Of a DNA stretch of 64,000 nucleotides, positions 34,846 through 51,205 are shown one piece after another. The position numbers and the translations under genes were made by a program. The notes under the pieces are model-generated. The model saw nothing but the letters and a program-made list of their open reading frames with translations, was not told the DNA's origin and searched no databases. This DNA comes from a virus. The number at the start of each line of letters is the position of its first letter. Within the stretch, counting starts at the first letter, position 1. The DNA lies in IMG/VR virus record IMGVR_UViG_3300010885_049703, positions 50,260 to 114,259 of that record; one strand, given 5' to 3'.

Positions 34846-35015
34846 TCTTTACCCCAATTGATTTTCAACCATACACGCTCGTGTATATAATGTGCCAGGG
34901 TCATAAAAATATTGATTATAATTGCACCACTTAATCCGGTCCATGCTGCAGTAATCAATGTTGCCACCACACGCCAAGTGATTGCTCTTACTATTGTTCT
35001 TTTGTGTAATTCCAT
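34821..35015 (-). CDS. DUF2061-like small membrane protein (tandem paralog)
   Basis: RTIVRAITWR ... HYIHERVWLKINWG. Confidence 0.8.
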   Translation of the reverse strand: MELHKRTIVRAITWRVVATLITAAWTGLSGAIIINIFMTLAHYIHERVWLKINWGKEWKQNNEQ

Positions 35016-35884
35016 CAAGTTCCCCAGGCGTTGCGCCAGATATCTACTTGTAATCTAGGACTGTATCTATAGCCACGCTTCATTGCCAACTCAGCTACCT
35101 GCGGCACATTGAAGTTGTATAAGTCAGCAACGCCGCCCGTGGGCATCAAATACACAGGACCACCAAAGCCAGCTTTGCGGAATTGATACACCGCTTCGTC
35201 AACATCTTTCAAATCATCATCAGTGGACACAACAAACTTGAGATAGGTCATGCCCACCATCTCATAACTTTTTACAACTTCGGGACGTATAGCATCTTCC
35301 CAACGCTCTCCCGAGCATGGTAGTTTTGCACTGACACTGAAAGTCAAACGATCGTAATCTCTGCCGTGTCTAGTGAATTCTTCAAACAGGTATTCTCTAA
35401 CATCTTCATGCAAAAACTGAGTACCATTGGTTTCAAATGTTATGTTACGCAAGCCTTGTTGGCGACATTTTTCGATCAGCTTGGGATATTCAACTTGATA
35501 GCCCAGCAATGGTTCACCGCCTGTGATCACCAGGTGAACATCGTCACTGATGTTGTCTGGACTCCATTTGTTCTTGGGAATCATGCCATGCATACGATCA
35601 GCGATTTCATCCAAGGTCATAAACGGTGACAGATGTTTGAATGCCGGATGCCATGACGCATAACTGTCACAGCCTGTTCGTGCCAGCGGCAAGTCGTTGT
35701 AGGTTTTGTAAAGATGTACGTCGGCAGCAATTTCGTCGGGTTCAGTGGTCTTCTCACCACGCGGTAAGCCAAATCCACGACACTGAAAGTTACACCCAAA
35801 TGTACGCATGAAAACGCTGGGCACACCAGCCCAACGTCCTTCACCTTGTAGACTATAAAATATTTCAGCTATTTTAAGTTGCAT
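35015..35884 (-). CDS. queE: 7-carboxy-7-deazaguanine synthase (radical SAM)
   Basis: EIFYSLQGEG, F.RTFGCN, ITGGEPLL, ETNGT, YSPRLQ. Confidence 0.93.
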   Translation of the reverse strand: MQLKIAEIFYSLQGEGRWAGVPSVFMRTFGCNFQCRGFGLPRGEKTTEPDEIAADVHLYKTYNDLPLARTGCDSYASWHPAFKHLSPFMTLDEIADRMHGMIPKNKWSPDNISDDVHLVITGGEPLLGYQVEYPKLIEKCRQQGLRNITFETNGTQFLHEDVREYLFEEFTRHGRDYDRLTFSVSAKLPCSGERWEDAIRPEVVKSYEMVGMTYLKFVVSTDDDLKDVDEAVYQFRKAGFGGPVYLMPTGGVADLYNFNVPQVAELAMKRGYRYSPRLQVDIWRNAWGT

Positions 35885-35908
35885 GATATTCCTTGAAAGT
35901 TTTGTGCG

Positions 35909-35937
35909 AGTATAGCACAAGAAATAAAATTAGTCAA
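35909..35937 (-). promoter_or_regulatory. sigma70-type promoter of queE
   Basis: TTGACT-N17-TATACT. Confidence 0.7.
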
Positions 35938-36304
35938 TGTCTTTTAAGAAAGGTTTTAATTTGGGAGGTTTCCAACCTTCAGGTTTGAGAACTTTGCCAT
36001 CCTTGCGCTTGTTGACCTTACCAGTTTCTGAATCAATTTTGGCAAAGTTTGTTTGCATGACTTCGTTCCAGGCAGCTTCGGCATCTACTCCCATGCTGTG
36101 CAATGCTCCGGTGGTCACTACCAACAGATCAATCAATGCATCCAATTGTTCCACTCGGTCTGCTGCCTGAACAGCTTCTTTGAGTTCATGCCATTCTTCT
36201 TTGATGAGATTCACATACATACGATACTGCTTGGGTTTGAATTCATCTACTGTTTGATCACATGCCAGCATGAATCGTTTTTGATCTTCAAAAATATTTG
36301 TCAT
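35930..36304 (-). CDS. MazG-like all-alpha NTP pyrophosphohydrolase
   Basis: LIKEEWHEL, DALIDLL, EV..TN.AK, DGKVLKPEGW.PP. Confidence 0.88.
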   Translation of the reverse strand: MTNIFEDQKRFMLACDQTVDEFKPKQYRMYVNLIKEEWHELKEAVQAADRVEQLDALIDLLVVTTGALHSMGVDAEAAWNEVMQTNFAKIDSETGKVNKRKDGKVLKPEGWKPPKLKPFLKDID

Positions 36305-36849
36305 TTAGTCCACCATTGTTCCCAGGGAAATACAATCCATTGCGGATCTGCCGCTTTATTAATGTTACATGCGGTATAATTAACATCAAGTTTGCTTTCA
36401 CTTGATTCGTTGTCAACTAGTGTGGCCACACGTACATTTGTGCCCCATATGTGATTCCACCTATCATGATTGGGCAAGCAACCGCTGGGCCAATCTTGTT
36501 GAATCCAGTTCAGTGTGGCACCGGTGTCGTTGATATCATCAACTATGAGTATGTTTTTGGCGTTGATACTATAATCAAATTCTGCCAACAACTGTTCATC
36601 CTTGGGAACGTATCCAAACGCATCTTCGGCCATCCATAAATTGCTTTCCGATTCATTGCCATCGCGCAGACTCACTTTGAGTGTCTCCATGCGCACTCCC
36701 AGGTATTGACTGATGAGATTGGCCGGAACAAGTCCACCACGAGTAATACCCACTACATAGTCAGGTCGCCAGCTGTCGTTGTGAATCTGTCTGATAATCT
36801 CCTGTGTGAAGTTTTCTACATCACGCCAGGTGTAGTATACCCGTTTCAT
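36301..36849 (-). CDS. Type I phosphoribosyltransferase (purine PRT-like)
   Basis: GITRGGL.PA, LIVDDINDTGAT, WIVFPWE. Confidence 0.9.
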   Translation of the reverse strand: MKRVYYTWRDVENFTQEIIRQIHNDSWRPDYVVGITRGGLVPANLISQYLGVRMETLKVSLRDGNESESNLWMAEDAFGYVPKDEQLLAEFDYSINAKNILIVDDINDTGATLNWIQQDWPSGCLPNHDRWNHIWGTNVRVATLVDNESSESKLDVNYTACNINKAADPQWIVFPWEQWWTK

Positions 36850-37634
36850 AGTTTCCTTGCTTTGATTAATAAATGCCAACCCAGATATTCTTTCACTGCA
36901 TCACGCATGGTATCACTCATGGCAGCAAACCAAGGTTCCAATTCATAGCGACCTTCGCGGTATGCTGGTATGTTATACATAAAACAGTGATCCTGCCTAA
37001 TACGTTCTATTTCAAACTGACCATTGAGCATCTGATAAATTTCACCTCTAGTAAATGCTTCGGCGTATGGACATTCAGCCTGTGCTTCAAACTGATCCAG
37101 CCCCTTTTGAATCATTGCATACTTCCAGGAGTTTTTAGCATACACCATAAAACGGAACTCGCCCCCAGGTGCCACTAAACTGTGAATCTCTTGAATGTGT
37201 TGTGCAATATTGGGTGAATGATGTATGACACCATAACTGTACACAAGATCAAACTTGCCAAGATTTTCTATTGCTGTTGCATCATCTGGATCAAGTAAAT
37301 TGATATTGCGGAAATCGCCATGTAAATCTAGAGTTTGGAATCGGTCACGACAGATGTTTAAACTAGCATCACTGATATCAATGCCTGTGTATTCAGCACC
37401 GTGACGCACAAACTGTTCAGCGTCAGTTCCAATACCACACCCAATCTCCAACACCCGCTTGCCTTGCCAGCGATGAAACTGTGCAAAGTCAAGTATGTGT
37501 GGCTCTACACGATAACGACGTGCAGTGACTTCTTCAAAGTACTCTACCGAACCCAAGGGTCGTTGACTGTGACGAATGTTGCAGGGTTGGCGATCCCAAT
37601 AGGATTTTATTTTTTCTTCAAGTTGTTGAGACAT
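36846..37634 (-). CDS. Class I SAM-dependent methyltransferase
   Basis: VLEIGCGIGTD, GIDIS, FDLVYSYGVIHH, PGG. Confidence 0.92.
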   Translation of the reverse strand: MSQQLEEKIKSYWDRQPCNIRHSQRPLGSVEYFEEVTARRYRVEPHILDFAQFHRWQGKRVLEIGCGIGTDAEQFVRHGAEYTGIDISDASLNICRDRFQTLDLHGDFRNINLLDPDDATAIENLGKFDLVYSYGVIHHSPNIAQHIQEIHSLVAPGGEFRFMVYAKNSWKYAMIQKGLDQFEAQAECPYAEAFTRGEIYQMLNGQFEIERIRQDHCFMYNIPAYREGRYELEPWFAAMSDTMRDAVKEYLGWHLLIKARKL

Positions 37635-38484
37635 TAACTGATCCTGATGACATATTGACTTCTCTTTTAGTTGTAGTCATTTGCTTGTTGATGTCGTTAG
37701 CTTCAAGTTTTTCCCAGGGATTCTGTTGGTTGATCTTGACATTCTCCCAAAAAGTAGTATCTATGCCCTTTGATTTCAAATAGCCGGCAATTTTTTCAGT
37801 GTCTGACATTCTATGATTAAACCATTTGACACTATGAAAATCTTCGGGACTGTCAGGCTTACCCTCCAGCATTGGACGATTCTTAAATGTTTCATCATGG
37901 TTGTTGCCGGTGAGATCGTACCGATCATGCTCAACCCACACTGGAATACGCTCCAGGATGTCCACCATGTATGCGATTTGACTCATCCAAGCGTCACTGA
38001 TCTGATGTGGACTCATATATCCAAACATATCAAGCCAGTCTCTGGGAATAATTGGAAAAATACTGTAAGGATGTTCTCTATGAGTATGCACAGCCAATAA
38101 CTTGAATTGACCTTGATACTTCATAATTTCTACATTCCAGCCTTGACTTTGCATCACAGCATCATCATTCCAGAACATTAACCATGCGGCATCGCTGTTT
38201 TTAGCTAGTTCTGTAACGTACTCATTAAGTCTAATATACCCCATGGGTTCAAAGCTCATTGCAGTATAATGTACACCTCGATCATCTAACAATGGTTGTA
38301 AAGATTCTTCCCAGTGTTTGATACCAACTTCGTCATCGTCATCAAAGCCCAGGATAATTTGTATTGTTGATAGGTCTTGAACACGATTAATTAAACTCAT
38401 TATACTGCGTGTCAGCGTCATTGTGCGCCCGCGAGTGGGCAACAAAACTGCTATGTCATACTCATATGAATGTTGTTTTTCCAT
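37618..38484 (-). CDS. GT2-like (GT-A) glycosyltransferase
   Basis: VLLPTRGR, FDDDD, FWNDD, SDAW. Confidence 0.75.
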   Translation of the reverse strand: MEKQHSYEYDIAVLLPTRGRTMTLTRSIMSLINRVQDLSTIQIILGFDDDDEVGIKHWEESLQPLLDDRGVHYTAMSFEPMGYIRLNEYVTELAKNSDAAWLMFWNDDAVMQSQGWNVEIMKYQGQFKLLAVHTHREHPYSIFPIIPRDWLDMFGYMSPHQISDAWMSQIAYMVDILERIPVWVEHDRYDLTGNNHDETFKNRPMLEGKPDSPEDFHSVKWFNHRMSDTEKIAGYLKSKGIDTTFWENVKINQQNPWEKLEANDINKQMTTTKREVNMSSGSVNVSTT

Positions 38485-38498
38485 TTATTCCTCAAATA

Positions 38499-38996
38499 TT
38501 ATGCAAATAAGTCTTCGTTCCAATGTCTATGTCCCTCGCGGAAAGCCATGTTACTTTGTGTTTCACGTACTTCTACTCGATAACACCACAAACGTTCTGC
38601 TTCACCAGGTCCCCACATATCTGGAATATACACTCCATTGACATACTTGTAAAGCATATCGGCTAGCCCCTCGCAGCCTAATCGTGGAAGAATGGTGAGT
38701 TTGGCCATGTTACGCTGTTGTAACAGTTTAAATGTCTCCAATTCTGGATCATCTTGTGCAACTAACAAGGTGTGATCAAACTGATCTTCTAAAATCTTCT
38801 TTAGTTCTTTGAGTCCACCGTAGTCAGCAGCCCAATTGCGCACATCTAAGTTATCGGTACCAAAGTAAAACTTCATGCTGAATGCATAGCCATGTATTAG
38901 ATTGCAGTGGCTATCAGCACGCCATTGCCGGTAGGCACAGGGAAAGGCATTGTGGTATTCTTTGGTACTAGTATAATTGTATGTAACAGATTGCAT
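38499..38996 (-). CDS. queD: 6-carboxy-5,6,7,8-tetrahydropterin synthase
   Basis: SHCNLIHGY (CxxxHGx), DYGGLKELK, FDHTL, VEVRET. Confidence 0.9.
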   Translation of the reverse strand: MQSVTYNYTSTKEYHNAFPCAYRQWRADSHCNLIHGYAFSMKFYFGTDNLDVRNWAADYGGLKELKKILEDQFDHTLLVAQDDPELETFKLLQQRNMAKLTILPRLGCEGLADMLYKYVNGVYIPDMWGPGEAERLWCYRVEVRETQSNMAFREGHRHWNEDLFA

Positions 38997-39002
38997 TGTT
39001 TT

Positions 39003-39065
39003 CTCCTATAAGTTAATATAGGCTTGCAGAGTTTGTATAGCGGGATGAATGCTCTAAAGGCCGCT
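39003..39065 (-). promoter_or_regulatory. Candidate variant preQ1-I-like riboswitch with SD-sequestering hairpin
   Basis: P1 AGCGG/CCGCU; pseudoknot UAGAG/CUCUG; A-rich L3 AUACAAA; CCUAUA/UAUAGG hairpin over the SD; TATAAT at 39076-39081. Confidence 0.65.
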
Positions 39066-39076
39066 GTTGAAAACTA

Positions 39077-39766
39077 TTATATATGGTTTTCTCGGACTTT
39101 GTCTACATTATAGGTAAACACAGTTAGATATTTTTTATAATGATGTTCGCTGCTACTGCAATGGAGTTGAGTACGATCCCAAGAAATCACATCGCCAAGA
39201 TTCCAATCAACGATTTGTTCTATAGTCAGTCCGTGTAAATCTTCTATGGGCATATAGCTCAGATAGTCATGATATGTTTTTTCATCAAATTGATGATCGT
39301 TTATATTAACCACTTGACTATAATCAGCAACAGTACCCTGAGCTAATCCCAAAACATTTGATGCACGATCAATGGATTGTTTGAGATCAAGTCTTGAAAA
39401 CTTAGTACTGGCACCAAACCAATAGTTATCAAAAAACACGGTTGATGCTTTTGGGGAGAAATCCAACGGTATTAAAAAAGATGGTCCCAAACATTCAGCA
39501 GACCACTCACGATGTGAATCCACATGTACTTTTTGATTATACGAACGTTGATAGAAGAAAATTAATTCATCGACTGCCCAATTAAAATTTGCCAACTTGT
39601 TGATAATATCAGTAACTATTTGTTGTGGCCATTCGTCAACATCCCAGTGAGGATGCTTGCTTGACATAGTGGGACGATGATCCCAAGGACCATCTTCCTG
39701 ATCAAAATAATTTTTAAGACTAGCAATATCTTCCGGGGATACTATATCCTTGTACACTTTAGCCAT
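39077..39766 (-). CDS. Fe(II)/2OG oxygenase-like protein
   Basis: HVD ... WDRTQLHCSS ... K. Confidence 0.6.
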   Translation of the reverse strand: MAKVYKDIVSPEDIASLKNYFDQEDGPWDHRPTMSSKHPHWDVDEWPQQIVTDIINKLANFNWAVDELIFFYQRSYNQKVHVDSHREWSAECLGPSFLIPLDFSPKASTVFFDNYWFGASTKFSRLDLKQSIDRASNVLGLAQGTVADYSQVVNINDHQFDEKTYHDYLSYMPIEDLHGLTIEQIVDWNLGDVISWDRTQLHCSSSEHHYKKYLTVFTYNVDKVRENHI

Positions 39767-40160
39767 TGGGATTTTTATAACCTTCTCGTTTATAATTGGC
39801 CTGTCCAGCGATTACACCACGTACCCCGCCAACAGGATCTTCGCAGTCTCCATGACGTCGGGGTATCAGATGTACATGTGGATACATCACAGTTTGCCCG
39901 GCAGCCTCGCCAAAGTTAATACCAATGTTAAATCCATCACATTCACCTTGCTCAACCAATTTGTTGCCATGGGTTGTAGCCGAATACACTGCCTCATTGA
40001 TAGTACTCACGGTATTATATCTCGGAACAAATAGTAAATGTCCTGGAGTAACTGGATAGCGATCACGATATACTACTACATGAAAATCTTCCCATACAAC
40101 ATCATCCCATGGTGCAATACTTTGTTTTTGAGCTTGTTCTAAATTATTCACACCAGTCAT
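39759..40160 (-). CDS. HIT family nucleotide hydrolase
   Basis: DRYPVTPGHLL, GFNIGIN.GEAAGQTV, HVHLIPR. Confidence 0.93.
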   Translation of the reverse strand: MTGVNNLEQAQKQSIAPWDDVVWEDFHVVVYRDRYPVTPGHLLFVPRYNTVSTINEAVYSATTHGNKLVEQGECDGFNIGINFGEAAGQTVMYPHVHLIPRRHGDCEDPVGGVRGVIAGQANYKREGYKNPNG

Positions 40161-40371
40161 CGCTTTCCATGTAAACAGATGCTTGTTCACGAGCAGATTC
40201 TATGCTTTCTGCAACAACAGTGAGAGTAGCAACACCGTGTTTGATATGAATGTCAAACGGCACACGGCCCATGGGCAACCAACCATCGTCAACTCGCAAA
40301 CGAACTTTGTAGCTACGCATTTGTTGTGCTCGGCTTATGATTTCTTGAGTATAGTCGGCTGCTGTTTTCAT
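40144..40371 (-). CDS. Hypothetical protein
   Basis: Coupled ORF. Confidence 0.6.
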   Translation of the reverse strand: MKTAADYTQEIISRAQQMRSYKVRLRVDDGWLPMGRVPFDIHIKHGVATLTVVAESIESAREQASVYMESDDWCE

Positions 40372-40372
40372 A

Positions 40373-40567
40373 TCAGTCCCGCGGCATTGTTGCTGCTTCT
40401 TTGATCAGCTCTACAAGTTCTTCAACTGTTGATACTATGATTTTAGTATTCTTCCATTCGTCGTTGTCATCACGTCCGCCAACTTCAATCATAAATCCGT
40501 TGTCGTACATGTTGATAGTAAATGCTTCATTTACTTTAGTGAGTTTGTCACTGATTGTTGTTGCCAT
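40373..40567 (-). CDS. Hypothetical protein
   Basis: SD AAGGAG; YDNGFMIEVGGRD. Confidence 0.7.
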   Translation of the reverse strand: MATTISDKLTKVNEAFTINMYDNGFMIEVGGRDDNDEWKNTKIIVSTVEELVELIKEAATMPRD

Positions 40568-40590
40568 GTTCTCTCCTTGATTAGTTGAAT

Positions 40591-40923
40591 TTACTTTTTT
40601 TTACCAAATAGTGATTTTGACTTCTTTGCTAATTCTTGCTGCCGCTTTTTTTCTGCTGCTTCTTTAGCATCGGCTGCTTTTTTGGCTGATTCTCGTTCTC
40701 GTTCAATACGAATTGCATCTTCTTGACCTTGTGCAATCATTTTTTTAAACAGCAGAATTACTCGATCCTTTTCTCGCTCTGAAATTATCTTGACAGCTTC
40801 TACTTTTCCTTCGTAACTTTTGGCACTGTCTAAGAAACCTTCGGGTACTGCTAGTTTCTTTTTCTTGGGTTTTAATGCATCTAACTTCTTTTTAAACTCT
40901 TCTGGGGTGTCTTCTGTGGACAT
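40591..40923 (-). CDS. Hypothetical charged helical protein
   Basis: SD AGGA; K/E-rich. Confidence 0.65.
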   Translation of the reverse strand: MSTEDTPEEFKKKLDALKPKKKKLAVPEGFLDSAKSYEGKVEAVKIISEREKDRVILLFKKMIAQGQEDAIRIERERESAKKAADAKEAAEKKRQQELAKKSKSLFGKKK

Positions 40924-40996
40924 GGTTTTTATTTCCTATAATATAGTGAGTTCCCCCACTATACTATGTATCAATTAACCATGCTGGATTATCCCA

Positions 40997-41764
40997 TCAT
41001 CTAGGCGCAAACTCTTGTTGTAGTTTGATATTGTCCATGAACTCTTTCTTGACACTGGGGTCATCTTTGAATGCACCTGTTAGCACAGTGGTTTGTGTCA
41101 ATGAACTATGTGCCATGATGCCGCGATTCTCACAGCAACCATGTGTGGCTTGTATGTACACACCTACGTTTTTACTGCCAGTGGCCTTCATGATCTCTCT
41201 AGCGATATCATTGCACAACTCTTCTTGTAGTGTGCCACGGCGAGCACACCACTGAGCAATGCGAGTATACTTGCTCAAACCAATGAGCTTTTGAGCAGCA
41301 ATGATTCCAATGTATGCAACTCCGCTGACTGGTTGATGATGGTGACTGCACATACTACGAAGCTCGCTGCGAACAACCAGCATGCCTTCATAACGGTCTG
41401 TTGTGTCGTTTGGAAATGCTGTTGCATCTGGAGCAGGTTCGTATCTTCCTGCCATGATTTCGTTAAAGTACATCTTGGCTAATCTACGTGCTGTGCCTTG
41501 ACTGTTAGGATCTGTTTCGCGATCAATCAGCAATCGATCTAGCACAGTTTCAAATGCTTCTTCGGCTTCGTCAATTAGTCTAGATTTCTGATCGTCATTA
41601 ACATAACCACTGATGTTATCACCGGCCCAGAAACGTTTCTTATCATGTTTCATTTGGGTACGTATTGCATCAGCTAGATATGATTCTTGATAATCTTTAT
41701 CACCTGCTGTTGTATTTGACGTCGGTTCGTCATCGCCGTCTACATACATTTTTTCATATACCAT
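40997..41764 (-). CDS. folE: GTP cyclohydrolase I
   Basis: TARRLAKMY, SMCSHH, GLSKYTRI, RGTLQE, HGCCENRG. Confidence 0.97.
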   Translation of the reverse strand: MVYEKMYVDGDDEPTSNTTAGDKDYQESYLADAIRTQMKHDKKRFWAGDNISGYVNDDQKSRLIDEAEEAFETVLDRLLIDRETDPNSQGTARRLAKMYFNEIMAGRYEPAPDATAFPNDTTDRYEGMLVVRSELRSMCSHHHQPVSGVAYIGIIAAQKLIGLSKYTRIAQWCARRGTLQEELCNDIAREIMKATGSKNVGVYIQATHGCCENRGIMAHSSLTQTTVLTGAFKDDPSVKKEFMDNIKLQQEFAPR

Positions 41765-41769
41765 ATTAT

Positions 41770-41831
41770 CTCCGAGTTTTAGACGTGGATGTCTATAGGT
41801 TAATTATAAACATATTTAGATCACTTGTCAA
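41770..41831 (-). promoter_or_regulatory. Consensus promoter plus candidate SD-pairing pseudoknot leader of folE
   Basis: TTGACA-N17-TATAAT; UAGAC-AUCCAC-GUCUA-AAACUC-GGAG. Confidence 0.6.
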
Positions 41832-42972
41832 GCCCAAGTTCTTCTTCTAGTTGGCGAACTGGAGAACTCCAGTCATTGGTGAAGTTTCTTATGTACTGAA
41901 TGTTATCTAAATCTTTCTGGGTTTGTAAAACAATTTCTTCATTGGCAAAGTGTATGACCAATCCTCGACGTAAGGCAGTTTCCAAAAGTTCCTGGCGATA
42001 GTCATTGTCATCGGGTAAACTGAAAATACTAAACATGATGAGATGATTGACATTGCTGGTGTGAATCATGCTTTTCAAATGTGCATGATTTAGTCCTTCG
42101 TTCTCACCGTGTTGATAGGGAAACTTGTATCCTTTCTTGGTACAATAATGTCGAACTGCCAAGGTTTGGAAATGCAGATCAATGTTGCGTGTTTTGACAC
42201 CATCGTACTCCATGTAGCACACTACAATATCTTTGGATTCATCAATAGATACCACTGCTTCTGAACTTTGATCGTGCAGTGGTCTAAAATATGCACCAGG
42301 CCATTTGCGGTGTGGCTGACCATCTCTAACCAGCAATCTGATATCAATACTGACACGAGTCTTATCAGTGCGGTTGGGAATATTGCCATGAATGTGTTCT
42401 TGGAAGAACAAATGCGCCTGACCAGGTTGCAATGTAATTGGCCAACTGTTGTCAGCACAAGTAGAGTCTAGGTATTCATAGCTCCAGTTTTCGCGTTTGG
42501 CCTGGCGTGTTATTTCCCTACTCTTATCCAGATCCATGATCTGCATTGAGTTAGATTCAAAACATGGAGTGAACGGCATCCACACAGTTCTAAGTCCAAG
42601 TCCGTTGCCTACCCACCGGCCTTGATGGAAGATCAACACAGCACCAAACTTGTCTTGATTGGGTATCAAGATTCGTAAGTTACCAAATTTTTGAATTAAC
42701 ACATCGGTGCCCAGTTGTGGAACAACATGCTCAGATACAATTTCATCAAAGTGTTGATAAAAATCAGTTTTCAGCAAGGCATGACTCACAGTGTTTTGAA
42801 CACGTTGTATGTCATGCGGTGGAATAACTTCATGTAGTGTATCCAGTGATGTGGCATTGGGATACAATTTTTGAATCTCACCTAAAATGATAGCCGGCAT
42901 GGGATGCTGGCCTAGATCATAATCTAAGGTTTGATTATCAAATGCTGCTTGGTCTTGAGTCAATTGTGTCAT
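41821..42972 (-). CDS. Fe(II)/2OG enzyme with HxG site (candidate halogenase), fused to a LIC12192-like carbohydrate-cluster domain
   Basis: FHQG in place of HxD; TVWMPF; HGN..N.T..TRVS.D.R; C-terminal YC...FSIFSLP...HFANE domain. Confidence 0.65.
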   Translation of the reverse strand: MTQLTQDQAAFDNQTLDYDLGQHPMPAIILGEIQKLYPNATSLDTLHEVIPPHDIQRVQNTVSHALLKTDFYQHFDEIVSEHVVPQLGTDVLIQKFGNLRILIPNQDKFGAVLIFHQGRWVGNGLGLRTVWMPFTPCFESNSMQIMDLDKSREITRQAKRENWSYEYLDSTCADNSWPITLQPGQAHLFFQEHIHGNIPNRTDKTRVSIDIRLLVRDGQPHRKWPGAYFRPLHDQSSEAVVSIDESKDIVVCYMEYDGVKTRNIDLHFQTLAVRHYCTKKGYKFPYQHGENEGLNHAHLKSMIHTSNVNHLIMFSIFSLPDDNDYRQELLETALRRGLVIHFANEEIVLQTQKDLDNIQYIRNFTNDWSSPVRQLEEELGLDK

Positions 42973-44744
42973 AGTGTTTCCATCCTATTTTTAATAAGTC
43001 CTTTTCTTCTTGCAGTGTAAAAATCCCCAGTTGGACTTGAACTTCTGGCAGTGAATTTATACATAGTAGATTCATGAGCTCCTGTTATTATATTATAACT
43101 GGTTGTCAAAGTCAACGGATACTGTTGATCAAAGTCAACAATAAACCCGCGTTGTAATTCAATCAAATCTTGGTCAACTTCTGTCAACATTGACAGAGCC
43201 GACAACGCCAACTCGGCAGCGTCTTGTTGATGCTGGTACATGAATTCATAACTGATGCTATGAATTGCATGCCCTCCCACTCCATCAATCACTCCTTGTG
43301 TGAGATACCGATGTGTTTTGCTACGCACAGTATGATAATGTTCTTGAAATACTGTACTAGTGGATATCAATTTAAATAACTGATCATACAACGTTTGATA
43401 GGCAATATTTTTAACTTGTCGAGCATATCTTGCAATAATTTGTGTATATCCCATGGCATGCCAATGTATGATCATCCAGGCATAGACATATCCTTCAATG
43501 ATATCGTCTGTGGTCATAGTGCTGGTGCCTGCAACGATCTCAGTTTGCTCGGCCACCGCATCTTGATCACGACTATCAAGATTCATATAATCTTTGACCC
43601 ATATGGTTTTTAATCCATACTGTTGTCGACTCTGTGCAGTGGCCAATTCACTATTCTCTAACATCTGAGCGAACCATATGTCTATGGAATTATGTTGCCC
43701 CAACTCCAATAACTCACAAAGTCCTTGAATCCACGTATGCTTGGTTTCTAATGGTAATCCGATGATTACTTCGGTGTATGTCGGCACTTGATATTGTTCA
43801 CTGAGCTGCATGACTTCTCTGATATTGTTGACATCAAGATTTTTTCTTTTGATAGCCTCTAACGTAGATTCATTCATACTCTGTACGCTGACAGTAACAC
43901 CACGCCCATATGGTCCTAGGGTCTTGGCAATTTCAAATATTGCATTGGTACTATTTTTGGCATACTGTATGTTGATGACTTCTATTGCGGAGTTTTCAGC
44001 TCGTTGTCGCATAAGCCTGCTGATCTCTAAATCTCTGTCAACGAAAATTCCAAAATTAGCATCTGCACAAAAAATATATGCCACTTGATGTGAAGCAGCC
44101 CACTCCAACTCACTGTCAACTCTTTCAAGCCCAAAGCGTTTTATTTTACTGTATGTCACTCCGCCCCAGTCACAAAAGGTACAAGCATATGGACAACCAC
44201 GGTTAGTTTCCAAGGTCATTGCCCAAACTGCATCAGGGTTTGCTGATATTATATTGTCAAACACTCCTGTGAGATACGGACTTGGTATATCTAAGTCTTG
44301 TAATCGATCAGCAGGATATAACGCATCCACGGTGTTGTTGTGTAATATACTTCTCAGTATCTTTACAAAACTTTCTTCACCTTCGGCCAGTGCAATAGCA
44401 TCAATAAACTGATGTGCATACATTTGCGAGGAACTCTGAGGCCCACCAAATATTATCACACAATCAGGAAATTTAATTTTTACTTGTCGGGCCAACTCCA
44501 AACAATACTGTTCGTTCCACATGTAGCAGCTGAAGCCACACAGCACAGGATCATCAAGCTCACAAATGACTTGATCAATCGGGTCTCGGCGAAAGTACAA
44601 TCCAGCAAGTTGAAAATTATCAACTATGTCTGTGAACTGACCGGCATAACTCCAAAGACATCCGGCACTGTAAGGTAACCAATAATTAGGCTTGTTCTGA
44701 AACTCTACAACATATTGCGGTTGAAACAAGTATACATTCTTCAC
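42969..44744 (-). CDS. B12-binding domain radical SAM protein
   Basis: LPYSAG.LW.YA, GFSCYMWN, GGP, EGE, ETNRGCPYACTFCDWG, DANFG; GTG start coupled to the upstream stop. Confidence 0.9.
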   Translation of the reverse strand: MKNVYLFQPQYVVEFQNKPNYWLPYSAGCLWSYAGQFTDIVDNFQLAGLYFRRDPIDQVICELDDPVLCGFSCYMWNEQYCLELARQVKIKFPDCVIIFGGPQSSSQMYAHQFIDAIALAEGEESFVKILRSILHNNTVDALYPADRLQDLDIPSPYLTGVFDNIISANPDAVWAMTLETNRGCPYACTFCDWGGVTYSKIKRFGLERVDSELEWAASHQVAYIFCADANFGIFVDRDLEISRLMRQRAENSAIEVINIQYAKNSTNAIFEIAKTLGPYGRGVTVSVQSMNESTLEAIKRKNLDVNNIREVMQLSEQYQVPTYTEVIIGLPLETKHTWIQGLCELLELGQHNSIDIWFAQMLENSELATAQSRQQYGLKTIWVKDYMNLDSRDQDAVAEQTEIVAGTSTMTTDDIIEGYVYAWMIIHWHAMGYTQIIARYARQVKNIAYQTLYDQLFKLISTSTVFQEHYHTVRSKTHRYLTQGVIDGVGGHAIHSISYEFMYQHQQDAAELALSALSMLTEVDQDLIELQRGFIVDFDQQYPLTLTTSYNIITGAHESTMYKFTARSSSPTGDFYTARRKGLIKNRMETL

Positions 44745-45259
44745 TGCTGCAGCCCAGTGATTTGCATAGTATACCTGGAATGATTGCCAAAGTTTCCGGC
44801 TATGTGCGTGGCAGTTCCAGTCCAGGACACCCAATCACCGGCTCTCCAGTCATCAAAGCATTGACCATCACAGTGAAAGATTTGTCCCATTTGCCAGTTG
44901 GTCAAAAATATCAACACTCTTGTGATAGTTTCAATATCTGTAACATTGTGATTCTTGCTGTATCTTCTATACAAATCACCATGCAATGGTTGTATAAGTC
45001 CGGGCTGCATGTGATGAACAACTATAAATTTTTCTTTGAGTTCAGGCCACGGATCTTGGTGCCAAAAGTTATTGGTGTTGATGTCATCGGCAACTTCCAG
45101 TGAAATCATATCCCAATAGCGATCACGATCAGCTACATCACTCCAGACATAGATATCTTCGCCACGACTGGGACTGTCAGACATATCCTTGCGTTGATAA
45201 ACCAACTGATCTAATGTCTGTTGATTCCAAATTGGATCAATATGTCCGTGTCTGATCAT
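44741..45259 (-). CDS. Fe(II)/2OG oxygenase / cupin
   Basis: PG..QPLHGD ... H.AGN.G..SRYTMQITG. Confidence 0.75.
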   Translation of the reverse strand: MIRHGHIDPIWNQQTLDQLVYQRKDMSDSPSRGEDIYVWSDVADRDRYWDMISLEVADDINTNNFWHQDPWPELKEKFIVVHHMQPGLIQPLHGDLYRRYSKNHNVTDIETITRVLIFLTNWQMGQIFHCDGQCFDDWRAGDWVSWTGTATHIAGNFGNHSRYTMQITGLQQ

Positions 45260-46179
45260 TTTATCTCTAAGTTATTGCGCCAAATTTCTATGGTACGATC
45301 TAGACCCTGTGAAAGATCAACTGTTGGCTGCCAGCCCAGCAACTGGTGTATGAGATTGTTATTGCTATTCAACCAATAGATCTCACCAGGACGACGAGGT
45401 TTTGAATCCCAATGCATGGTTCCTGACCAGCCAATTTTATCGGCAATCATTGCAGCGTAGTTATCAATGCGTATGGGATCGTTTGGTCCCACAGTCATCA
45501 CAATACCAGTGCCAACAACATCAGGATTTTCAATCACACGCACCCAGGCTTCTAATAAGTCAGTAATAAAAATAAAATTACGATAAGGAGTTCGATAACC
45601 AAGGTAGACATGATCAGGATTTTTCAACATTTGTGTTATAATTTGTTCAGTGACAAAGAAATCATTGTCACGACGGCCATAGCTATTAGTTTGACGTATA
45701 GCAGTCCAAGGAAACTCATGAGATCGATGCATGTACTCAAGATACTTTTCCACTGCTAATTTAGCTACAGCATATGGGGCATTGGGGTGCGGAACAGTGT
45801 TTTCATCAAATGCAATTGGAGTTCCTGGTTTACCAGTCAATTGCACTTCATCACTGATAGGCTGCCACCCATACACTTCCATGGTTGATGCAAACACAAA
45901 GTTTTTTAGATTGGGCAACTTGGCTGCTGCTTCAATGAGATTCACTGATGCCACATAGTTGACCTCACTGAAACTGGTTTGTTCGTAAAAACTTTTTTCG
46001 ACTTCGGTTCGAGCAGCCAGATGCACTACTACATCTGGACTTTGCTCTAGCAGTTCTTGTTCAACAGCCGCAAAATCCAATAAGTCACTTTGCATTGCAT
46101 AGACTTCGTGCCGTGATTGTAGTATTGGCACAAGATGACTGCCAATGAATCCAGATGCTCCAGTTACAAATATTTTCAT
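45256..46179 (-). CDS. NDP-sugar 4,6-dehydratase/epimerase (extended SDR)
   Basis: TGASGFIG, HLAA, STMEVYG, YAVAK. Confidence 0.92.
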   Translation of the reverse strand: MKIFVTGASGFIGSHLVPILQSRHEVYAMQSDLLDFAAVEQELLEQSPDVVVHLAARTEVEKSFYEQTSFSEVNYVASVNLIEAAAKLPNLKNFVFASTMEVYGWQPISDEVQLTGKPGTPIAFDENTVPHPNAPYAVAKLAVEKYLEYMHRSHEFPWTAIRQTNSYGRRDNDFFVTEQIITQMLKNPDHVYLGYRTPYRNFIFITDLLEAWVRVIENPDVVGTGIVMTVGPNDPIRIDNYAAMIADKIGWSGTMHWDSKPRRPGEIYWLNSNNNLIHQLLGWQPTVDLSQGLDRTIEIWRNNLEIK

Positions 46180-47381
46180 ATTATTTTATTGACATGATAC
46201 TTGGCTTCGGCAACGTTCTCACGATATCGATTGCTTCCTCTGTACCATTCTCGATTTTTAGTAGGATGCGAAATAATATCAACAATGCGATCGACTGTGC
46301 CATTGTTCCAGTCGCTGATTAGTCCCATGTTATGATGCGGAGCCTGTAGCAAATTACCTAGCTTGTGGAAAGCATCATCAATTGACCAAGGAACATATAG
46401 GCGATTTGGATCGTTTGCAAAAGTTTCAGGAAAACTTCTATAAGCAGGATACAGTACGTTGGCACCAAGTGTGTCGGCTTCACTTACTGTATTAGATACC
46501 CAATCTTGCAATGCACAGTTAAACAATACTCTGGTATCGTTAAGAAGATTGTAGTAATCATTTTTATTTAGTCCTTCACATATAGTTAGCAGCCCAGACT
46601 CTTGCATCTGGCGTGCTCGTTGCAGATGCAAGGGATTGTTTGATCGCAATGGACCACCTGAGTACACACAGAACTCCACAGGGTAGCCACCTTGCTGATG
46701 CCACATCTCAATGAGATCCATGTAAAACTCTGGTTGTTTCTCTTGATCAAATCTCGCTGCAAAGCCCACACGCATTGGACGCTGATCAAATGGCTTGATA
46801 TTGGCAGCGCCGCCAATACGCTCCAGCACTTCCTCTTTGCCAAATGCTAGACCACTGATATTATACAAAGGAGCAGTCCACCCCGCAATGCGCATGTGCG
46901 CTACCATTTCTTCGTTTGTGGCCAGAACACCAGTGACAAACTCATTGACCATCTTTTCATATGCCGCCATCCACTTCTCCAGCCCCCAGACATGCACAAA
47001 GTCATCGGGATCAATGCTCTGAGCCAGGCAACGAACAAAAACACGGGGTCGCTGGGTGGGATCAACTTGATCAAAGATGTACGGGAGACTTTCAATGCCG
47101 GGCTGGAACATGTCTTCAAAGTAGATGACGTCTTCGTTAGTGATCTCGCCATTTTTGTGCATTTGTACGAGATTCATGATCTGACTCATACCAAAGAAGC
47201 TGCGGCCATGTGCGTCTAGCACTTGTCCCACTGAGATGGCCTGAGTGTTGTCAATGGTTGTGCCAGGAACATAAACAACATCAAGGCCACGACGTTCGAA
47301 CACACGTCGGTTCCATTCTGAAAGCTGTAGAGTATACCTTGCTTCGTACGACTCCAGCCCCATGTAAAATAGTTTACGCAT
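46176..47381 (-). CDS. GT-B fold glycosyltransferase (candidate DNA base glycosyltransferase)
   Basis: RFDQEKQP, ALQDWVSNTVSEA (E/D-x7-E-like) motifs; lies in the deazaguanine cluster. Confidence 0.7.
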   Translation of the reverse strand: MRKLFYMGLESYEARYTLQLSEWNRRVFERRGLDVVYVPGTTIDNTQAISVGQVLDAHGRSFFGMSQIMNLVQMHKNGEITNEDVIYFEDMFQPGIESLPYIFDQVDPTQRPRVFVRCLAQSIDPDDFVHVWGLEKWMAAYEKMVNEFVTGVLATNEEMVAHMRIAGWTAPLYNISGLAFGKEEVLERIGGAANIKPFDQRPMRVGFAARFDQEKQPEFYMDLIEMWHQQGGYPVEFCVYSGGPLRSNNPLHLQRARQMQESGLLTICEGLNKNDYYNLLNDTRVLFNCALQDWVSNTVSEADTLGANVLYPAYRSFPETFANDPNRLYVPWSIDDAFHKLGNLLQAPHHNMGLISDWNNGTVDRIVDIISHPTKNREWYRGSNRYRENVAEAKYHVNKII

Positions 47382-51003: not shown

Positions 51004-51205
51004 CTTCGGCCTTCAATTTAGTGAGTTGATCTTTGAGTTGTAATTTAAGTTTTTTGATATCGCGTATTCGATCGTGATCAGCAATGGGATGTTTTTCTAA
51101 CTTACCTAATTGCTTTTCCAATCTATGATGCTCTCGTTCAAGTTCTTTAGTGCTAAGTTCTTCTATATTACTGCTGTTGCTCAAGTTGGTCAAGTCTTGA
51201 TTCAT
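50975..51205 (-). CDS. DUF465/YdcH-like coiled-coil protein
   Basis: LEREHHRLEKQL...KKLKLQLKDQL. Confidence 0.6.
   Translation of the reverse strand: MNQDLTNLSNSSNIEELSTKELEREHHRLEKQLGKLEKHPIADHDRIRDIKKLKLQLKDQLTKLKAEDGTSGSQNS

What the first reader, a model, noticed from the sequence alone, without database searches (positions are those of the whole stretch)
41821..42972. Candidate phage Fe(II)/2OG halogenase (HQG facial motif)
The PhyH-like domain retains the distal His and 2OG-binding Arg (HGN..N.T..TRVS), but the HxD/E carboxylate is Gly (CAT CAA GGC). Replacing that residue with Ala or Gly is the established signature of radical halogenases (SyrB2, WelO5, BesD, nucleotide halogenase AdeV). 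It is fused to a carbohydrate-cluster-type domain and sits between folE and a B12 radical SAM / NDP-sugar block. This raises the possibility of a chlorinated sugar or nucleotide in a phage.
Basis: partly seen in the sequence, partly recalled or inferred. Interest (0 to 1): 0.85.

Follow-up and report, generated by a model that had tools for sequence, protein, structure and literature searches.

The report
Phage sugar oxygenase with rebuilt iron site
A giant uncultured phage encodes a two-domain iron/2-oxoglutarate enzyme in which glycine replaces the usual iron-binding aspartate, always together with one particular glutamine; it is more likely a sugar-pathway oxygenase with a relocated iron ligand than the first virus-encoded radical halogenase, and only an assay or a metal-bound structure can decide.

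Summary
ORF 41821-42972 (-) encodes 383 aa: a PhyH-fold Fe(II)/2OG domain (related to TIGR04324) fused to a TIGR04323 domain. The motif is H116-Q-G118, with distal H195 and R206 intact. G118 sits at the carboxylate position.

It is not a one-off. HxG is invariant in 27 fusion homologs down to 38% identity. More distant relatives have HxD.

No clade-specific carboxylate replaces the Asp. However, G118 always comes with Gln191 (142 of 142 sequences), against 4 of 90 HxD relatives. Gln191 lies four residues before the distal His. That is where the sugar oxygenase HygX (H-X-G...E-X3-H) keeps its relocated iron-binding Glu. AspH is another natural HXG hydroxylase. HxG is therefore not diagnostic of halogenation.

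The gene overlaps a KedN5-type B12 radical SAM methyltransferase gene by ATGA. It lies in a conserved SDR / glycosyltransferase-like module inside a 7-deazaguanine island of a jumbo phage. Bacterial homologs sit in GDP-fucose/fucosyltransferase clusters.

My odds: oxygenase with a 2-His(+Gln) site 0.5, halogenase 0.3, substrate-completed iron site 0.1, non-catalytic 0.07. I could not inspect model coordinates.

Earlier follow-ups in this scan found the same family on other DNA and reached the same reading.

The parts
41821..42972 (-). Whole gene: 383-aa fusion of an Fe(II)/2OG oxygenase domain and a TIGR04323 domain (P0001)
   Evidence: 322 homologs with E<=1e-3, best 97% identical
42253..42972 (-). 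N-terminal PhyH-fold Fe(II)/2OG domain (residues 1-240)
   Evidence: TIGR04324 E 4.6e-28 at 98 bits, below the cut-off of 150; PtlH Z 13.7; Foldseek E ~1e-7 to CurA Hal, PtlH, ThoJ and SyrB2
42619..42627 (-). H116-Q117-G118: proximal His, with Gly at the carboxylate position
42388..42402 (-). Q191-E-H-I-H195: coupled Gln four residues before the distal His (Q-X3-H)
   Evidence: G118 with Q191 in 142/142 rows; D118 with Q191 in 4/90; HygX E-X3-H precedent
42349..42357 (-). R206-V-S208: 2OG C5-carboxylate binding Arg/Ser motif
   Evidence: invariant; aligns with PtlH RMS
42586..42588 (-). T129: second position that tracks G118 (Thr/Ser in HxG rows, mostly Asn in HxD rows)
41866..42237 (-). C-terminal TIGR04323 domain (residues 246-369). 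It has a serine-recombinase catalytic-domain fold without the catalytic Ser/Arg, and a conserved face of Y253, E290, N291, E292, S315, D321, R326, H341, N344, E345
   Evidence: TIGR04323 at 62.9 bits against a cut-off of 55; Z 9-11 to resolvase/integrase catalytic domains; conservation
42969..44834 (-). KedN5-family B12-dependent radical SAM C-methyltransferase; its TGA stop overlaps the fusion's ATG (ATGA)
   Evidence: adjacent in 13 of the related loci
44741..45259 (-). orf172, a conserved module member of unknown family
45256..46179 (-). SDR of the NDP-sugar epimerase/dehydratase type
   Evidence: PF01370 E 2e-42, PF16363 E 5e-40; conserved in the module
46176..47381 (-). orf401, probably a GT-B (GT4-like) glycosyltransferase; this is a lead only
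   Evidence: Atlas feature neighbours carry PF00534/PF13692; Pfam hit only E 0.19
40997..41764 (-). folE (GTP cyclohydrolase I), the downstream neighbour, apparently with its own promoter
   Evidence: PF01227 E 2.9e-40; promoter at 41803-41831
41803..41831 (-). Perfect sigma-70 consensus (TTGACA-17-TATAAT) between the fusion's stop codon and folE
   Evidence: a pattern match only

Best explanation
The gene encodes an active Fe(II)/2-oxoglutarate enzyme of the 'sporadic carbohydrate cluster' pair TIGR04324 + TIGR04323, here fused into one chain. It probably tailors a sugar, either an NDP-6-deoxyhexose or a glycan unit, handled by the co-transcribed SDR, B12 radical SAM C-methyltransferase and GT-B-like protein.

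Its iron site has been rebuilt. His116 and His195 are kept, as is Arg206 for 2OG. Asp118 has become Gly, and a Gln has appeared four residues before the distal His (H-X-G...Q-X3-H). HygX binds iron with a relocated Glu from that same -4 position. The most likely arrangement is therefore that the Gln191 amide, or a water it holds, fills the third facial position. The enzyme would then oxidise its substrate (hydroxylation, desaturation or oxidative cyclisation) rather than halogenate it.

The resolvase-fold C-terminal domain most likely binds and presents the substrate.

Shown here: the motif, the fold, the conservation, the coupling, the fusion and the neighbourhood. Inferred: that Gln191 reaches the iron, the type of reaction, and the sugar substrate.
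For: Enzyme looks active:
- All 2OG-oxygenase catalytic residues except the carboxylate are invariant.
- The fold model is confident and PhyH-like.

Iron-site coupling:
- G118 is accompanied by Q191 in 142/142 sequences, against 4/90 for D118. No G118 sequence lacks Q191, while D118+Q191 intermediates exist.
- Q191 stays invariant while residues 190 and 192 vary.
- T/S129 also tracks G118.

Precedents:
- HygX is a PhyH-fold sugar oxygenase and a fold hit here (Z 10.0). It has H-X-G...E-X3-H with the relocated acid as iron ligand, and it is an oxidative cyclase, not a halogenase (PMC13374393).
- AspH is a natural HXG...H hydroxylase (PMC10947486).

Sugar context:
- ATGA coupling to a KedN5-type B12 radical SAM gene.
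- The module SDR / rSAM / fusion is conserved in at least 13 IMG/VR contigs.
- Roseivirga homologs with the same HQG motif lie between two NodZ/FUT8-like fucosyltransferases, Gmd, a second SDR and a GT2.
- TIGR04323 membership.
Against: - Gln, not Glu, is invariant, although Q-to-E is a single base change. A neutral amide ligand has no characterised precedent as the permanent third ligand of a 2OG oxygenase. From memory, Gln330 of IPNS is only a resting-state ligand.
- A polar NH2 next to an open site could equally hold a halide, or steer rebound as Asn219 does in BesD (bioRxiv 10.1101/2024.12.09.627616).
- I could not read model coordinates, so the Gln191-iron distance is untested.
- The coupling rests on only 2 well-supported independent origins (8 on the best tree), so it is not statistically significant on its own.
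- No substrate or product is known for any family member.
Confidence: 0.5

Rival explanations
1. It is a true Fe(II)/2OG radical halogenase. Gly118 opens a coordination site for chloride or bromide. The Gln191 amide NH2 (with Thr129) hydrogen-bonds the halide or the oxo/hydroxo and steers halogen rebound onto a sugar or nucleotide C-H. The product would be a halogenated sugar in a phage or bacterial glycan, or a modified nucleotide.
For: - HxG is conserved clade-wide while the outgroup has HxD. This is the pattern of known hydroxylase-to-halogenase switches (DAH paper).
- All other catalytic residues are kept.
- No strictly coupled carboxylate exists.
- The invariant residue is Gln rather than Glu, which fits a hydrogen-bond donor better than a ligand.
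- Amide or hydroxyl second-sphere donors favour halogenation in BesD (Asn219) and WelO5 (Ser189).
- Q191 and T129 align with SyrB2 positions that, from memory only, are Ser231 and Thr143 lining the chloride pocket (alignment).
- Nucleotide halogenases are found by the same HXG/A filter (PMC11186838).
Against: - No match to SyrB2/CmaB-type chlorinase models or to any halogenase family by sequence. Fold matches to halogenases are no better than those to hydroxylases.
- The HygX and AspH precedents show that HxG enzymes can be oxygenases.
- D-to-G alone does not make a halogenase, as in prolyl 4-hydroxylase (PMC2767507, listed; I read the abstract only).
- From my own knowledge, no halogenated bacterial or phage glycan is known, despite 279 viral contigs carrying the gene.
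- D and G forms alternate among close relatives of the same architecture.
Confidence: 0.3
2. It has a two-His site completed by the substrate. A carboxylate or phosphate of the substrate (a sugar acid, an NDP-sugar phosphate, or an Asp/Glu of a virion protein) supplies the third anionic ligand, and Gln191 only positions it.
For: - In AspH structures the substrate Asp carboxylate can approach the metal (PMC10947486).
- In 48 T4-like viral loci the gene lies directly upstream of a ~1,940-aa tail-fibre gene in the structural module. A protein or virion-glycan substrate is therefore conceivable.
Against: - The bacterial and jumbo-phage contexts point to neutral 6-deoxyhexose chemistry: Gmd, SDR, fucosyltransferases.
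- There is no direct evidence for any substrate.
- Adjacency to the tail-fibre gene may be lineage synteny only.
Confidence: 0.1
3. It is a non-catalytic or only 2OG-consuming protein. The loss of the carboxylate abolished productive iron chemistry, and the protein survives as a binding or scaffold subunit.
For: - The carboxylate is missing.
- Pfam PhyH and the NCBIfam trusted cut-off for TIGR04324 are not reached.
Against: - Both His, the 2OG Arg/Ser and many pocket residues are invariant across sequences down to about 30% identity, and a specific coupled substitution is maintained.
- AspH variants work even with one His.
Confidence: 0.07

Closest known systems
TIGR04324 'sporadic carbohydrate cluster 2OG-Fe(II) oxygenase' with TIGR04323 'LIC12192 family' partner (NCBIfam; no member characterised as far as I could find)
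   Same: Both domains are homologous: E 4.6e-28 and 2.6e-17. JGI annotates close homologs with both names. The carbohydrate-cluster context is kept in bacteria.
   Different: Here the two proteins are fused. The oxygenase half scores below the trusted cut-off (98 against 150 bits). It carries H-x-G...Q-x3-H, whereas the more distant family members have H-x-D with a small residue at -4. The HxG/Q clade is mainly viral.
HygX, hygromycin B orthoester synthase (PDB 4XCB/4XCA)
   Same: It is a PhyH-fold Fe/2OG enzyme acting on a sugar. It has H-X-G at the triad position and a functional side chain exactly four residues before the distal His (PMC13374393). Fold match Z 10.0 over 200 residues, rmsd 4.8.
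   Different: HygX has Glu at -4 and a Lys filling the gap; this family has an invariant Gln. There is no detectable sequence similarity, HygX has no fused second domain, and the two arose independently.
SyrB2 / CytC3 / CurA Hal carrier-protein-dependent halogenases (PDB 2FCT, 3GJA, 3NNF)
   Same: PhyH fold, H-x-A/G motif and distal His. The top Foldseek hit is CurA Hal (E 7e-8). There is weak local sequence similarity around the distal His.
   Different: No family-level sequence match. There is no carrier-protein partner in the neighbourhood. These enzymes have a small Ser at the -4 position where this family has Gln (alignment). Hydroxylases match the fold equally well or better (PtlH Z 13.7).
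AspH (human aspartate/asparagine beta-hydroxylase)
   Same: It is a natural HXG...H enzyme that hydroxylates with only two protein His ligands (PMC10947486).
   Different: It belongs to a different DSBH subfamily, has a protein substrate and is not homologous at the sequence level. No coupled Gln is described for it.
AdaV-type nucleotide halogenases (AdaV, CtNTH, VaNTH)
   Same: They carry the HXG/A motif and act on nucleotides, which would suit a deazapurine island (PMC11186838).
   Different: No sequence relationship was detected. The family's conserved partners are sugar enzymes, and it also occurs in loci where folE is not among the recurrent neighbours.

Membership tests
Fe(II)/2OG oxygenase superfamily, PhyH-like DSBH fold | Double-stranded beta-helix fold | tested here: met
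   Model pLDDT 92; PtlH Z 13.7, PHYHD1 Z 11.5, PhyH Z 10.9; Foldseek E ~1e-7
Fe(II)/2OG oxygenase superfamily, PhyH-like DSBH fold | HxD/E...H facial triad | tested here: not met
   H116-Q-G118...H195: both His are present and the carboxylate is Gly
Fe(II)/2OG oxygenase superfamily, PhyH-like DSBH fold | Arg (RxS) binding the 2OG C5 carboxylate | tested here: met
   R206-V-S208 is invariant and aligns with PtlH RMS
TIGR04324 sporadic carbohydrate cluster 2OG-Fe(II) oxygenase | Score above NCBIfam trusted cut-off (150 bits) | tested here: not met
   98.4 bits, E 4.6e-28, covering 34-234 of 248 profile positions: a related, divergent subfamily
TIGR04323 LIC12192 family sporadic carbohydrate cluster protein | Score above NCBIfam trusted cut-off (55 bits) | tested here: met
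   62.9 bits, residues 253-361
TIGR04324/TIGR04323 pair | Location in a carbohydrate biosynthesis cluster | tested here: met
   Window: SDR, B12 rSAM, GT-B-like protein. Roseivirga L003: Gmd, SDR, two fucosyltransferase-like proteins, GT2. Not met in the 48 T4-like loci, where no sugar gene was recognised
Fe(II)/2OG radical halogenases (functional class) | HxA/G in place of HxD/E, conserved among relatives | tested here: met
   G118 in 152 aligned sequences; a starred clade of 27 HxG and 6 HxD
Fe(II)/2OG radical halogenases (functional class) | Open, halide-accommodating site at the vacated position | not testable with these tools
   Model coordinates cannot be read. The coupled Gln191 at the HygX ligand position may fill the site
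Fe(II)/2OG radical halogenases (functional class) | Halogenated product formed with Fe, 2OG, O2 and halide | not testable with these tools
   Needs a biochemical assay
SyrB2/CmaB-type chlorinating enzymes (NCBIfam TIGR01762, named from memory and from an earlier scan note) | Sequence match to the family model | tested here: not met
   The NCBIfam scan at E<=0.1 returned only TIGR04324 and TIGR04323. PDB phmmer to CytC3 gave E 0.77 and a profile gave E 0.013 over 36 residues
HygX-type relocated triad (H-X-G...E-X3-H) | Gly at the triad position | tested here: met
HygX-type relocated triad (H-X-G...E-X3-H) | Glu four residues before the distal His | tested here: not met
   The position is Gln in 142/142 HxG sequences, never Glu
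Serine recombinase catalytic domain (for the C-terminal domain) | Fold | tested here: met
   Z 11.1 (4bqq), 10.7 (3guv), 10.3 (3bvp), 9.4 (2rsl) over residues ~246-369
Serine recombinase catalytic domain (for the C-terminal domain) | Catalytic Ser/Arg after strand 1; match to the Pfam Resolvase model | tested here: not met
   No Pfam hit at E<=1. The segment after strand 1 reads Y-x-E-Y-D/E-G, with no conserved Ser or Arg (aligned by eye)

The most novel reading that the evidence does not exclude
The HxG...QxxxH clade could be the first virus-encoded Fe(II)/2OG radical halogenase family. It would chlorinate or brominate a 6-deoxyhexose-type sugar (or a nucleotide), so that many uncultured aquatic phages and a few bacteria would make halogenated glycans or DNA adducts, with Gln191 as a new kind of halide-holding residue.
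Probability: 0.3. Interest if true: 0.85.

Novelty: new variant of a known kind. Interest (0 to 1): 0.55.

Why it matters
Either outcome would add to 2OG-oxygenase chemistry. A permanent 2-His-1-Gln (amide) iron site would be a coordination motif not described for this superfamily. It would also be a second, independent case, after HygX, of the third ligand moving to the -4 position in a sugar-tailoring enzyme. A halogenase would be the first Fe/2OG halogenase from viruses and the first aimed at a sugar.

The family is abundant in uncultured aquatic phages: 279 IMG/VR contigs, in jumbo phages, T4-like myoviruses and one giant-virus MAG. It is absent from 50,697 deposited phage genomes. It therefore marks an unstudied phage glycan or nucleotide modification pathway.

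The result is also a caution for genome mining. HxG alone does not identify a halogenase.

Tried and rejected
Carboxylate candidates rejected:
- D210 is invariant, but it is equally present in HxD relatives and in PtlH (RMSMDTR), which has a normal triad.
- D76 is enriched in HxG rows (26/32) but absent from six HxG sequences that keep Q191.
- E292, in the ENE motif of the C-terminal domain, is acidic in 132/137 HxG rows. It is missing in five of them and present in some HxD near-relatives.
- E192 is replaced by Gly or Asp in several HxG sequences.

Searches that gave little:
- Pfam gave no family for the protein at E<=1, and PHROGs gave nothing meaningful.
- PDB sequence searches reach only the distal-His region of CytC3, SyrB2 and EasH, plus PtlH. 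HygX is not reached by sequence.
- tblastn of P0001 and of a T4-like-clade member against deposited phages found no match.
- The literature search for 'sporadic carbohydrate cluster' found nothing.
- Searches for the SyrB2 Ser231/Thr143 pocket residues found nothing usable, so that mapping rests on memory.
- The McCulloch 2015 HygX paper is not held.
- Scans of IMG/VR for the HxD near-relatives P0131 and P0132 found nothing. I could not test whether D and G forms occupy the same phage module.
- orf172, orf288, orf229 and the 510-aa protein gave no Pfam or NCBIfam assignment.

Statistics: the phylogenetically independent test of the G118-Q191 coupling has only 2 supported pairs and cannot reach significance.

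Habitat, salinity and expression could not be examined. One of my Pfam calls failed because I gave a reference that was too short.

Complex prediction was not used, because no protein-protein binding claim is made. Model coordinates are not exposed by any tool, so the iron site could not be measured.
Full report
**1. The observation**

The ORF at 41821-42972 on the minus strand is intact and encodes 383 residues. QEHIH (Q191-H195) is at 42388-42402 and RVS (R206-S208) at 42349-42357.

NCBIfam splits the protein in two:
- Residues 35-233 match TIGR04324, 'sporadic carbohydrate cluster 2OG-Fe(II) oxygenase'. The E-value is 4.6e-28 at 98 bits, below the trusted cut-off of 150.
- Residues 253-361 match TIGR04323, the LIC12192 family, at 62.9 bits, above the cut-off of 55.

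Pfam finds nothing at E<=1.

An AlphaFold2 model built on 27 homologs is confident, with pLDDT 92.2 and pTM 0.90. Its N-terminal domain is a PhyH-type double-stranded beta-helix. VIA-align gives PtlH Z 13.7, EvdMO1 12.5, AviO1 11.8, PHYHD1 11.5, SyrB2 10.2, HygX 10.0, CurA Hal 9.9 and WelO5 9.2. Foldseek E-values are about 1e-7 for halogenases and hydroxylases alike. The fold therefore confirms the superfamily but cannot tell the two chemistries apart.

**2. Is Gly118 really at the carboxylate position?**

Yes. Within the family, FHQGRWVGNG aligns without gaps to FHTDEWYGHG of more distant relatives. A profile of 38 diverse members aligns its H-x-D to PtlH F-H137-Q-D139. H195 aligns with the distal His of PtlH, CytC3, SyrB2, EasH and AndA. 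R206-x-S208 aligns with the 2OG-binding RMS of PtlH.

**3. Is it a one-off?**

No. The search for homologous proteins returned 322 relatives. In 27 full-length fusion homologs down to 38% identity, H116, Q117, G118, N123, H195, R206 and S208 are invariant.

The exhaustive representative search found 396 proteins at E<=1e-3. Across all fetched sequences the triad position is Gly in 152 and Asp in 92.

I built a maximum-likelihood tree of 113 N-terminal domains.
- The HxG forms fall in one well-supported clade of 33 rows (27 Gly, 6 Asp), plus a small second group with HNG/HTG.
- The best tree needs 8-9 D/G changes. Well-supported branches force at least 2.

**4. Does another carboxylate complete the triad?**

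I compared column by column the HxG and HxD groups. No Asp or Glu is strictly coupled to Gly118.
- D210 is invariant, but it is equally present in HxD relatives and in PtlH, which has an ordinary triad.
- D76 is missing in six HxG sequences.
- E292, in the C-terminal domain, is missing in five HxG sequences and present in some HxD relatives.
- E192 is Gly or Asp in several.

What is strictly coupled is a Gln. Position 191 is Gln in 142 of 142 sequences with Gly118, and in 4 of 90 with Asp118, where it is otherwise Pro, Ser, Ala, Asn, Thr or Gly. Thr/Ser129 also tracks Gly118, while HxD relatives mostly have Asn there. No Gly118 sequence lacks Gln191. Asp118+Gln191 forms do exist, which suggests that the Gln arose first.

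A caveat applies. On the tree only 2 supported independent contrasts exist (8 on the best tree), so the coupling cannot reach significance by a phylogenetic sign test. Its weight comes from its perfect maintenance over deep divergence while positions 190 and 192 vary.

**5. What the Gln means**

I checked that lead in a 2026 review (PMC13374393). [quoted passage not shown] It is nonetheless an oxidative cyclase.

Gln191 lies four residues before His195 (Q-X3-H), which is exactly HygX's ligand position. HygX is a PhyH-fold sugar enzyme and a fold match here. A side chain at -4 can therefore reach the iron in this fold.

AspH is a second natural HXG...H enzyme. It hydroxylates with only two His ligands (PMC10947486). 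Both precedents show that HxG does not suffice to call a halogenase.

Against the ligand reading:
- The invariant residue is Gln, never Glu, although one base change would give Glu.
- Amide or hydroxyl second-sphere donors (BesD Asn219, WelO5 Ser189) are credited with favouring halogenation (bioRxiv 10.1101/2024.12.09.627616).
- In the HMMER alignments, Q191 and T129 fall on SyrB2 residues that, by my memory of the SyrB2 structure paper, are Ser231 and Thr143 beside the chloride. I could not confirm that from held literature.

No tool exposes model coordinates, so the distance from Gln191 to the metal site remains unmeasured. That is the main gap in this report.

**6. The second domain**

Residues 246-369 adopt the fold of serine-recombinase catalytic domains, with Z 9-11 to phiC31-type, TP901-1, Bxb1, gamma-delta and Sin recombinases. 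They have no Pfam Resolvase match. The segment after strand 1 reads Y-x-E-Y-D/E-G, without the catalytic Ser/Arg (aligned by eye).

Conserved residues cluster at the C-terminal edge of the sheet: Y253, E290, N291, E292, S315, D321, R326, H341, N344 and E345. This is the usual ligand-binding face of such folds. I infer a substrate-binding or substrate-presenting role. In more distant relatives the two domains are separate proteins ('solo' rows).

**7. Neighbourhood**

The window is part of a 114-kb IMG/VR contig estimated at 33% complete. Its family B DNA polymerase is 50% identical to that of Sinorhizobium phage Phosso and 45% to Agrobacterium phage Atu_ph07. It is therefore a fragment of a jumbo phage. 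GC content is even across the region.

All the genes below lie on the minus strand. Upstream of the fusion:
- A KedN5-family B12 radical SAM C-methyltransferase at 42969-44834 (174 bits). Its TGA stop overlaps the fusion's ATG as ATGA.
- orf172.
- An NDP-sugar-type SDR at 45256-46179.
- A 401-aa protein whose Atlas neighbours are GT4-type glycosyltransferases. This is a lead only, since Pfam gives E 0.19.

Downstream of the fusion:
- A perfect TTGACA-17-TATAAT promoter match at 41831-41803.
- folE, then a HIT protein, queD (PTPS), a SAM methyltransferase, a purine phosphoribosyltransferase-like protein, a MazG-like protein and queE.

The order SDR / B12 rSAM / fusion / folE recurs in at least 13 related IMG/VR contigs at 60-97% identity.

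The fusion is not tied to deazaguanine genes:
- 48 viral loci of T4-like type carry it directly upstream of a ~1,940-aa tail-fibre gene, downstream of a gp5-like hub and other 2OG oxygenases. No folE, SDR or rSAM gene is among their recurrent neighbours; queD and queE were not specifically sought in those loci.
- In Roseivirga genomes the same HQG protein lies between two NodZ/FUT8-like fucosyltransferases, GDP-mannose 4,6-dehydratase, a second SDR and a GT2.

The common denominator is sugar (6-deoxyhexose) chemistry. I therefore assign the fusion to the sugar module rather than to the deazapurine pathway. This is an inference.

**8. Distribution**

There are 279 relatives in IMG/VR, including one giant-virus MAG contig, against 10 loci in 185,579 species-representative genomes. 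Both scans used HQG-type patterns. Atlas clusters are 70-97% viral. tblastn found no match in 50,697 deposited phage genomes, with either this protein or a T4-like-clade member as query.

**9. Verdict**

The halogenase interpretation is partly supported. Its two sequence-level refutation tests were passed. However, two natural HxG oxygenases exist, one of them a sugar enzyme with its ligand relocated to the very position where this family carries its strictly coupled Gln.

My odds:
- 0.5 for an oxygenase with a 2-His(+Gln or water) site.
- 0.3 for a halogenase.
- 0.1 for a substrate-completed site.
- 0.07 for a non-catalytic protein.

Either of the first two would be a new variant of a known kind.

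The scan has met this family before on other DNA (e1-5370145, e1-5370154, e1-5411591, e1-5659935, e1-5335683, e1-5349411), with the same conclusion. I reached the coupling result independently before reading those notes, but I took the HygX lead from them.

Noticed in passing
window 41803-41831 (-): A perfect sigma-70 consensus (TTGACA, 17 nt, TATAAT; 12 of 12) overlaps the stop codon of the fusion gene and lies 39 nt upstream of the folE start. folE seems to be a transcription unit separate from the sugar module. Promoter-like sites overall are not more frequent than in shuffles.
   Followed up: partly
window 35015-41764 (-): A 7-deazaguanine-type gene set: queE-like radical SAM (35015-35920), MazG-like (35930-36304), purine PRTase-like (36301-36879), SAM methyltransferase (36846-37634), queD/PTPS (38499-38996), HIT (39759-40190), folE (40997-41764). 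No queC was recognised among the ORFs I scanned. The PRTase plus MazG plus HIT set suggests a nucleotide-level route.
   Followed up: partly
L024-L082 (for example L033:5160-6263, L054:10001-17231): In 48 T4-like IMG/VR contigs the same fusion (50-57% identical) lies directly upstream of a ~1,940-aa tail-fibre gene. It lies downstream of a gp5-like baseplate hub, two phrog_17490 paralogs and one or two 2OG-FeII_Oxy_5 genes. This is a conserved structural-module position with no recognisable sugar genes nearby.
   Followed up: partly
L083:10001-11128: A contig labelled as a giant-virus MAG (GVMAG) carries a 39% identical homolog of the fusion.
   Followed up: no
window 41866-42237 (-): The TIGR04323 domain has the fold of a serine-recombinase catalytic domain (Z up to 11) but lacks the catalytic Ser/Arg. 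I have not seen this fold assignment described for the family.
   Followed up: partly
window 42097-42099 (-), residue E292: The second Glu of the C-domain E-N-E motif is acidic in 132 of 137 HxG sequences but in only 6 of 46 HxD sequences. It is a second, looser correlate of the Gly118 state, and it lies in the other domain.
   Followed up: partly
L022:7833-9896, L023: Some related jumbo-phage contigs carry a second, 25-29% identical B12 radical SAM paralog a few genes downstream of the module.
   Followed up: no
window 51168-52700 (-) and 46176-47381 (-): The 510-aa protein that another first-stage note calls DpdA-like gave no Pfam or NCBIfam hit at E<=0.5 in my scans. The 401-aa protein is glycosyltransferase-like only by Atlas features.
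   Followed up: partly
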